Below are positions 15,568 through 15,623 of a stretch of DNA of 64,000 nt, in pieces. Location of the stretch: NCBI RefSeq assembly GCF_003334385.1, contig NZ_QOWN01000004.1, one strand, 5' to 3'. Below the pieces are notes generated by a model that was not told the DNA's origin, ran no database searches, and saw nothing but the letters and a program-made list of their open reading frames with translations. Both the position numbers and the translations under genes were made by a program. Position 1 is the stretch's first letter; each line of letters begins with the position of its first letter. This stretch comes from Escherichia coli. GTDB taxonomy: Bacteria > Pseudomonadota > Gammaproteobacteria > Enterobacterales > Enterobacteriaceae.

Positions 15568-15623
15568 ATTCCCATAAACTCAGATTTACTGCTGCTTCAC
15601 GCAGGATCTGAGTTTATGGGAAT
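15568..15623. promoter_or_regulatory. Perfect 18-bp inverted repeat (attcccataaactcagat / atctgagtttatgggaat), 20-nt spacer, in melR-melA divergent region
   Basis: Read directly from sequence; MelR operators are 18 bp but assignment to named sites is inference. Confidence 0.5.

What the first reader, a model, noticed from the sequence alone, without database searches (positions are those of the whole stretch)
15568..15623. Perfect 18-bp inverted repeat in the melR-melA divergent promoter region
The arms attcccataaactcagat and atctgagtttatgggaat are exact reverse complements separated by 20 nt whose own ends are partly complementary. The length matches MelR operator size, so it is probably a pair of inverted MelR sites, but it could also form a substantial cruciform or RNA hairpin in either divergent leader.
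Basis: seen in the sequence. Interest (0 to 1): 0.3.

Follow-up and report, generated by a model that had tools for sequence, protein, structure and literature searches.

The report
MelR operator sites 1 and 2
The perfect 18-bp inverted repeat is the already well-studied pair of binding sites (site 1 and site 2) for the MelR regulator, between the E. coli melR and melAB genes; it works as protein-binding DNA, not as a hairpin, so it is ordinary.

Summary
ATTCCCATAAACTCAGAT (15568-15585) and ATCTGAGTTTATGGGAAT (15606-15623) are exact reverse complements 20 nt apart. This is the longest perfect inverted repeat in the window and far beyond chance.

The locus is the E. coli K-12-type melR/melAB intergenic region. 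Coordinates in Samarasinghe et al. 2008 (PMC2377442) place the arms on MelR site 1 (-100.5) and site 2 (-62.5). That paper says both sites carry the consensus 18-bp MelR box. The low-affinity CRP site lies in the spacer.

The repeat is upstream of both mapped transcription starts (melR 15440, melAB 15677), so it is in neither leader.

In 63 melR-melA loci from other Enterobacterales and Vibrionaceae, two inverted boxes recur at a fixed 38-39 bp spacing. The arms usually differ by about 3 bases, variable positions are not compensated, and the spacer sequence is not conserved. MelR R273, the published contact to base pair 13, becomes Ser in exactly the loci whose boxes lack G13.

Only 38% of complete E. 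coli genomes have the exact element. At least 46% carry one uncompensated arm change.

Verdict: already known. The MelR reading is supported; the cruciform and RNA-hairpin reading is not. Low interest.

The parts
15568..15585 (-). MelR site 1. The consensus 18-bp box reads 5'-ATCTGAGTTTATGGGAAT on the minus strand. Its centre is -100.5 from the melAB start.
   Evidence: Sequence. Joint top PWM score in the whole window (31.0 bits), using a PWM built only from non-Escherichia species. Position derived from PMC2377442.
15606..15623 (+). MelR site 2, the same consensus 18-bp box on the plus strand. Its centre is -62.5 from the melAB start, which equals -174.5 from the melR start.
   Evidence: [quoted passage not shown]
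15585..15606 (.). Spacer holding the low-affinity CRP site (CRP1). It is a 22-bp site centred on the dyad at 15595.5. The core matches 5 of 10, and G7 and C16 are present.
   Evidence: [quoted passage not shown] PMC1635313: this low-affinity site needs MelR for CRP to bind. Sequence. The spacer is not conserved between species.
15548..15565 (.). MelR site 1' (weak box), centred at -120.5, 20 bp from site 1.
   Evidence: The site's existence comes from PMC2377442; the -120.5 register is my recollection of Belyaeva et al. 2000. The block CTCTGCTTTT is conserved across species. Box orientation could not be settled from sequence.
15626..15643 (.). MelR site 2' (weak box overlapping the -35 region), centred at -42.5. 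MelR occupies it only when melibiose is present.
   Evidence: PMC2377442. Conserved GGGAAG / GG block across species. The window carries a private G->A change at 15633.
15430..15447 (-). MelR site R. It overlaps the melR transcription start and is centred at -238.5 from the melAB start.
   Evidence: Third-best PWM hit in the intergenic region (6.4 bits). The minus strand reads TTCTGATATTCCAGGAAA, with G5 and the non-consensus A13 exactly as PMC2377442 describes.
15471..15492 (.). CRP2 site for the melR promoter (TGCGA-N6-GCACG), centred at 15481.5, which is -41.5 from the melR start.
   Evidence: Sequence. PMC2377442 places the CRP site 41 bp upstream of the melR start.
15440..15452 (-). melR promoter: -10 hexamer CATAAT (15447-15452) and transcription start at 15440.
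   Evidence: PMC2377442 gives CATAAT as the melR -10. The start position follows from site 2 lying at -174.5.
15665..15677 (+). melAB promoter: probable -10 hexamer CATGAT (15665-15670) and transcription start at 15677.
   Evidence: The starts are 237 bp apart in PMC2377442. The -10 assignment is my inference.
14510..15418 (-). melR, encoding the AraC/XylS-family regulator MelR.
15701..17056 (+). melA (alpha-galactosidase), the first gene of melAB.

Best explanation
The two arms are the two high-affinity, consensus 18-bp binding sites (site 1 and site 2) for the AraC/XylS-family regulator MelR. They sit in the divergent melR-melAB control region of an E. coli K-12-type chromosome.

Each box binds one MelR monomer through two helix-turn-helix motifs. 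These read two conserved blocks about one helical turn apart: positions 1-7 (ATCTGAG) and 13-16 (GGGA). The boxes point in opposite directions with centres 38 bp apart. A low-affinity CRP site fills the 20-bp gap, and weaker boxes 1' and 2' flank the pair.

Without melibiose, MelR sits on 1', 1, 2 and R and represses melR. With melibiose it also fills 2', and together with CRP it activates melAB. The element acts as double-stranded DNA. Its dyad symmetry exists because the same optimal box is used twice in opposite orientation.

Shown here: sequence, position, conservation of box and spacing, lack of selection for complementarity, and protein-DNA co-variation. Taken from the literature: MelR and CRP occupancy, and the regulatory outcome.
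For: Position. With the melR -10 CATAAT at 15447-15452 (-), the melR start is 15440. Site 2 at -174.5 is then centred at 15614.5, the centre of the right arm. The melAB start, 237 bp away, is 15677, which puts the arms at -62.5 and -100.5.

Sequence. The paper says the consensus box is found at both site 1 and site 2 and has G at positions 5 and 13. The arm sequence fits in one orientation only. Site R at 15430-15447 has G5 and A13, as the paper states. CRP2 (TGCGA-N6-GCACG) falls exactly at -41.5 from the melR start, which is an independent check on the arithmetic.

Occupancy. The paper reports DNase I footprints at sites 1/1', 2 and R.

Comparative data. A PWM built only from non-Escherichia loci ranks the two arms first in the 64-kb window, at 31 bits against 13.5 for the next hit. 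All 63 melR-melA intergenic regions examined have inverted boxes. Start-to-start spacing is 38 bp in 59 and 39 bp in 4, and site 2 lies 84-87 bp from the melA ATG in nearly all enterobacterial loci. The spacer sequence is free to vary.

Co-variation. MelR R273, the published contact to base pair 13, is Ser in 6 loci, and 11 of their 12 boxes lack G13. Of the 56 loci with R273, 52 have G13 in both boxes.

Gene identity. MelR and MelA are confirmed.
Against: No binding experiment can be run here. The papers that print the site sequences and footprints (Webster 1989, Caswell 1992, Belyaeva 2000, Grainger 2003) were not in the library. The match therefore rests on coordinates and base identities quoted in PMC2377442, plus my own recollection of -100.5, -62.5 and -81.5.

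The CRP site cannot be confirmed from sequence: 5 of 10 core matches, and no comparative signal above shifted registers.

There is a small excess of within-genome arm similarity: 3.04 mismatches against 3.56 with shuffled partners, and 86.4% against 84.3% of cells paired. Shared ancestry and the R273S specificity switch are enough to explain it.
Confidence: 0.95

Rival explanations
1. The repeat extrudes as a DNA cruciform in supercoiled DNA, and this structure, not or not only the duplex boxes, has a regulatory or recombinational role.
For: The 18/18 arms are perfect. Each single strand is predicted to fold at -20.5 kcal/mol as DNA, z = -8.3. There is a slight within-genome excess of arm similarity.
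Against: Complementarity is not conserved. Among 50 distinct arm pairs, only the Escherichia K-12-type pair is perfect, and the most common difference is 3 bases. In the variable columns 18-67% of cells are unpaired. At least 2508 of 5426 complete E. coli genomes carry one uncompensated arm change. From general knowledge, not tested here: a 20-nt spacer strongly disfavours extrusion. The element occurs once per genome.
Confidence: 0.02
2. The repeat is transcribed and forms an RNA hairpin (attenuator, terminator or sRNA) in the melR or melAB leader.
For: The predicted RNA hairpin is -36 kcal/mol, z = -8.6.
Against: The published starts place the repeat upstream of both promoters, at -53 to -110 from melAB and -128 to -183 from melR. 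No terminator-like site or T-tract is present. Rfam returns only sub-threshold plant miRNA-precursor models, 23 bits against a gathering score of 102, which simply match any long hairpin. Changes at the non-contact positions (8, 11, 12, 17, 18) are largely uncompensated, and the double-sided change at base pair 13 tracks the MelR R273S substitution rather than pairing.
Confidence: 0.01
3. The repeat is a chance palindrome, or a remnant of a mobile or repetitive element such as a REP, a MITE or transposon ends.
For: None beyond the dyad symmetry itself.
Against: Chance expectation is about 6e-5, and simulated windows never exceed 15-bp arms. There is one copy per genome and no other copy in the window. 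The two-box arrangement is conserved next to melR, and next to most melR paralogues, from Escherichia to Vibrio.
Confidence: 0.01

Closest known systems
MelR sites 1 and 2 of the E. coli K-12 melAB/melR regulatory region (Webster 1989; Belyaeva 2000; Wade 2000/2001; Grainger 2003; Samarasinghe 2008, PMC2377442)
   Same: It is the same locus. The 282-bp intergenic region matches MG1655 at all but one base, and that base lies outside the repeat. The positions (-100.5 and -62.5), the 18-bp length, G5/G13 and the CRP site between the boxes all agree.
   Different: The repeat itself does not differ. The window has a private G->A change at 15633 in the neighbouring site 2'.
AraC half-sites (I1, I2, O2) in the araC-araBAD divergent region
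   Same: An AraC/XylS-family regulator, boxes of about 17-18 bp each read by two helix-turn-helix motifs, a divergent regulator/operon layout, dependence on CRP, and autoregulation through distant sites.
   Different: AraC half-sites are direct repeats used by one dimer, and repression works through a 210-bp loop. MelR's strong sites are inverted, 38 bp apart, with CRP bound between them. Repression involves four MelR molecules without a visible loop (PMC2377442).
Cruciform-forming perfect palindromes and intrinsic-terminator hairpins
   Same: Perfect dyad symmetry and a strongly negative predicted folding energy.
   Different: A 20-nt spacer, no T-tract, a position outside any mapped transcript, and no conservation of complementarity.

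Membership tests
MelR operator sites 1 and 2 (melAB/melR control region) | Lies between divergent melR and melAB, with box centres at -100.5 and -62.5 from the melAB start (site 2 at -174.5 from the melR start). | tested here: met
   The arm centres 15576.5 and 15614.5 fit starts at 15440 and 15677. CRP2 at -41.5 and site R at -238.5 fall in register.
MelR operator sites 1 and 2 (melAB/melR control region) | An 18-bp box identical at both sites (the consensus), with G at positions 5 and 13. | tested here: met
   (the arms are identical as reverse complements). (the paper's description of the consensus). In ATCTGAGTTTATGGGAAT, positions 5 and 13 are both G.
MelR operator sites 1 and 2 (melAB/melR control region) | Boxes and their spacing are conserved wherever MelR orthologues occur, and base changes track changes in MelR's DNA-contacting residues. 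| tested here: met
   (63 loci with 38-39 bp spacing). (R273S goes with loss of G13).
MelR operator sites 1 and 2 (melAB/melR control region) | A CRP site lies between the two boxes. | tested here: inconclusive
   The 22-mer centred on the dyad matches 5 of 10 core positions, including G7 and C16. No comparative signal exceeds that of shifted registers. The literature calls it low-affinity and MelR-dependent.
MelR operator sites 1 and 2 (melAB/melR control region) | MelR protein physically occupies the sites (footprint, gel shift or ChIP). | not testable with these tools
   Published DNase I footprints and gel shifts exist (PMC2377442); none could be run here.
Structured RNA element (leader hairpin, terminator or sRNA) | The element is transcribed. 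| tested here: not met
   By the published start positions, the repeat is upstream of both promoters. No direct RNA data were available.
Structured RNA element (leader hairpin, terminator or sRNA) | Base pairs are maintained by compensatory change across relatives, or the element matches a curated family. | tested here: not met
   86.4% of cells paired against 84.3% in shuffles, with 18-67% unpaired in the variable columns; no Rfam match near the gathering score; no terminator-like site.
Cruciform or repetitive palindromic element (REP, MITE) | Perfect or near-perfect dyad maintained across strains and species, and multiple genomic copies. | tested here: not met
   The exact element is in 2067 of 5426 E. 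coli genomes, and imperfect alleles are in at least 2508. There is one place per genome. Other species typically have 3 arm mismatches.

The most novel reading that the evidence does not exclude
The two boxes are exactly identical in K-12-type Escherichia, and there is a slight within-genome excess of arm similarity across species. These might reflect occasional homogenisation of the arms by template-switch ('quasipalindrome correction') replication errors or transient hairpin or cruciform formation. In that case DNA secondary structure would shape how this operator evolves even though it functions as duplex DNA.
Probability: 0.04. Interest if true: 0.35.

Novelty: already known. Interest (0 to 1): 0.07.

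Why it matters
It matters little for discovery. This is a textbook operator pair whose positions, orientation and function were worked out between 1989 and 2008.

The useful outcome is negative: the strongest perfect palindrome in this window needs no structural (cruciform or RNA) explanation.

There is a modest comparative by-product. The two-box, 38-bp architecture is conserved from Escherichia to Vibrio and in most MelR paralogues examined. The natural R269H/R273S MelR variants pair with G13->A/C boxes, which independently agrees with the published R273-bp13 contact.

Tried and rejected
Older papers. I tried to read the primary papers that print the site sequences and footprints (PMC125794, PMC146657, PMC1447455, PMC232617). 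None is held. No supplementary files are held for PMC2377442. PMC4308713 had nothing on the sites, and a search for 'MelR / inverted repeat / 18 bp' gave nothing relevant.

Rfam, E-value mode. Only sub-threshold plant miRNA-precursor hits appeared. I rejected them as generic matches to any long hairpin.

Consensus promoter and terminator scan. It found nothing. That is expected for activator-dependent promoters, so it says nothing about the starts.

Comparative test for the CRP1 site in the spacer. The signal was no better than in shifted registers.

Orientation of the weak boxes 1' and 2'. PWM scores were all negative. Site 1' fits best in the same direction as site 2, and site 2' is ambiguous. 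I make no claim about either.

Hairpin covariation. The small excess over shuffles was judged to be explained by shared ancestry and the R273S switch.

Full report
**Observation.** The window reads ATTCCCATAAACTCAGAT at 15568-15585 and ATCTGAGTTTATGGGAAT at 15606-15623. These are exact reverse complements separated by the 20-nt spacer TTACTGCTGCTTCACGCAGG. It is the longest perfect inverted repeat with a loop of 60 nt or less in the 64-kb window; the next has 15-bp arms. In 150 first-order Markov simulations of the window the longest arm was 9-15 bp, and the analytic expectation for 18 bp is about 6e-5. The 18-mer with up to 3 mismatches occurs only at these two places, against 0.06 expected. 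In register, 1 of 10 positions pairs. Folding adds only an offset CTGC/GCAG stem next to a 2-nt bulge. An imperfect outward extension (42-nt arms, 74% complementary, 15544-15647) reflects the flanking weak boxes.

**Context.** The repeat lies between melR (14510-15418, minus strand) and melA (15701-17056, plus strand).
- NCBIfam gives MelR 636 bits (cut-off 253) and alpha-galactosidase 736 bits (cut-off 486).
- The region is present in 5401 of 5426 complete E. coli genomes, where it is annotated melR/melA.
- The 282-bp intergenic region matches MG1655 at all but one base, 15633.
- Over its first 50 kb the window is 99.978% identical to MG1655.

**Match to published MelR sites.** Samarasinghe et al. 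2008 (PMC2377442) describe five 18-bp MelR sites (1', 1, 2, 2', R) and two CRP sites.
- Site 2 is centred at -174.5 from the melR start, and the melR start is 237 bp upstream of the melAB start.
- The melR -10 hexamer is CATAAT, and a CRP site lies 41 bp upstream of the melR start.
- Site R has G5 but a non-consensus A13.

In the window, CATAAT is at 15447-15452 on the minus strand. That puts the melR start at 15440 and the melAB start at 15677. Site 2 at -174.5 is then centred at 15614.5, exactly the centre of the right arm and equal to -62.5 from melAB. The left arm is centred at 15576.5, or -100.5.

Three independent checks fall into register:
- TGCGA-N6-GCACG is centred at 15481.5, which is -41.5 from the melR start (CRP2).
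- Read as ATCTGAGTTTATGGGAAT, the arm has G5 and G13; in the other direction it has C5 and T13.
- The minus strand of 15430-15447 reads TTCTGATATTCCAGGAAA, with G5 and A13. It overlaps the melR start, as described for site R.

The paper also reports DNase I footprints at sites 1/1', 2 and R. [quoted passage not shown] That CRP site is low-affinity and needs MelR (PMC1635313). This fits the weak match of the dyad-centred 22-mer at 15585-15606: 5 of 10 core positions, including G7 and C16. The figures -100.5, -62.5 and -81.5 are also what I recall from Belyaeva et al. 2000 and Grainger et al. 2003, which I could not open.

**Is it transcribed?** With starts at 15440 (leftward) and 15677 (rightward), the repeat spans -53 to -110 from melAB and -128 to -183 from melR. 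It is upstream of both promoters and in neither leader. No terminator-like site is present. Rfam gives only plant miRNA-precursor models at 18-23 bits against gathering scores above 100, which simply match any long hairpin. The strong predicted folds (DNA -20.5 kcal/mol, RNA -36 kcal/mol, z about -8) are what two identical inverted boxes must give. They are not evidence of a structure.

**Comparative test: protein site or hairpin?** A MelR-based scan of one genome per species returned 80 loci, and 63 of them have melA divergent from melR at a normal distance.
- All 63 have two inverted boxes. Start-to-start spacing is 38 bp in 59 and 39 bp in 4. Site 2 lies 84-87 bp from the melA ATG in nearly all enterobacterial loci.
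- The spacer sequence is essentially unconserved.
- Within the boxes, positions 1-7 (ATCTGAG), 9-10 (TT) and 13-16 (GGGA) are conserved in both arms. These are two blocks about one helical turn apart, as expected for the two helix-turn-helix motifs of an AraC/XylS protein. Positions 8, 11 and 12 vary in both arms, and 17-18 vary in site 1.
- At the variable positions the arms agree about as often as chance predicts. Observed against expected agreement is 0.72/0.68, 0.48/0.39, 0.60/0.52, 0.34/0.33 and 0.44/0.42.
- Of 50 distinct arm pairs, only the Escherichia K-12 type is perfect, and the most common difference is 3 mismatches.
- On the 51-sequence alignment, 86.4% of cells pair against 84.3% in shuffles, and 18-67% of cells are unpaired in the variable columns.

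A PWM built only from non-Escherichia boxes ranks the two arms first in the whole window, at 31.0 bits against 13.5 for the next hit.

[quoted passage not shown] N222 is invariant, and G5 is nearly invariant (50/50 in site 2, 48/50 in site 1). In six loci (Buttiauxella and relatives) helix-turn-helix 2 reads FHSSSSF instead of FRSSSRF, that is R269H and R273S. In 11 of their 12 boxes position 13 is A or C. Of the 56 loci that keep R273, 52 have G13 in both boxes. These loci are probably one clade, so this counts as one or a few events. It still explains the double-sided changes at that pair as a change in protein specificity, not hairpin compensation.

**Within E. coli.** Counts are of exact 56-mers among 5426 complete genomes. 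Each of the three common variant alleles has one uncompensated change in one arm.

| Allele | Change | Genomes |
|---|---|---|
| K-12 type | perfect 18/18 repeat | 2067 |
| BL21 type | site 1 ATTACC... | 1767 |
| B2 type a | site 2 ATATGAG... | 552 |
| B2 type b (e.g. Nissle 1917) | site 2 ...TTTTTGGG | 189 |

Sampled rarer alleles have 2-3 arm mismatches. At least 46% of complete genomes therefore lack a perfect repeat. Perfection is a lineage feature, not a requirement.

**Mechanism.** Binding and regulatory steps are from the literature; anatomy and conservation are shown here. One MelR monomer binds each 18-bp box. Sites 1 and 2 are the strong consensus boxes in opposite orientation, and CRP occupies the weak site between them only together with MelR. 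Without melibiose, MelR holds 1', 1, 2 and R, and the four-molecule complex represses melR. With melibiose, MelR also fills 2', which overlaps the -35 region, and melAB is activated.

**Verdict.** The element is already known.

Noticed in passing
window 15633: A single G->A difference from MG1655 lies inside MelR site 2' (-44 from the melAB start), in a block conserved as GGGAAG in most species. None of the 5401 complete E. coli genomes carrying the region matches the window exactly (best 99.7%). A is nevertheless the natural base in 11 of 56 loci compared (the window's own included).
   Followed up: partly
window 1-50001: The window is 99.978% identical to MG1655 positions 4326211-4376210: 10 scattered mismatches (for example 3825, 4688, 6158, 7656, 12368, 17337) and a 1-nt C insertion near 19424, between yjdF and fumB.
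   Followed up: partly
L054, L056, L057, L058, L061, L063 (melR at about 2501-3385, boxes at about 2279-2334): MelR in Buttiauxella-type loci carries R269H and R273S in the second helix-turn-helix. Their operator boxes have A or C instead of G at position 13. This looks like a natural specificity switch, consistent with the published R273-bp13 contact.
   Followed up: yes
L048, L059, L060, L062, L064, L068-L071, L073-L076: These are second, MelR-like paralogues (73-81% identity) in Citrobacter, Buttiauxella and Superficieibacter with no adjacent melA. Upstream they keep the same two inverted boxes at 38-bp spacing. L072 (Superficieibacter electus) has only a weak match (11 mismatches). In L070 the divergent gene is a 166-aa Gly/Asn-rich secreted-looking ORF.
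   Followed up: partly
L086 1124-2501 and L091 1240-2501: Raoultella terrigena and Kluyvera sichuanensis have about 1.3 kb between melR and melA. In L086 a 229-aa ORF of unknown function sits there. Site 1 and the first 13 nt of the spacer remain, but site 2 is gone, so the operator pair appears split by an insertion.
   Followed up: partly
window 196-213 (-) and 14804-14821 (+): These are the next-best matches to the cross-species MelR box PWM (13.5 and 11.8 bits, against 31 for the true sites). The second lies inside the melR coding sequence. Both are probably chance.
   Followed up: no
window 40630-40661, 26946-26979, 9430-9459: These are the other perfect inverted repeats (14-15-bp arms, 2-4-nt loops). 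The first coincides with the annotated 3' end of the aspX sRNA at the 3' end of aspA. They are probably intrinsic terminators.
   Followed up: no
L061 (CACSKA010000008.1) and L002 (E. coli AQ15, NZ_CP043487.1 4465668-4471816): A contig labelled Chryseobacterium sp. 18061 carries an enterobacterial melR-melA locus, so it is probably mislabelled or contaminated. In strain AQ15 the region is a patchwork of about 100-300-bp gene fragments annotated as partial pseudogenes, which suggests an assembly artefact or a heavily rearranged genome.
   Followed up: no
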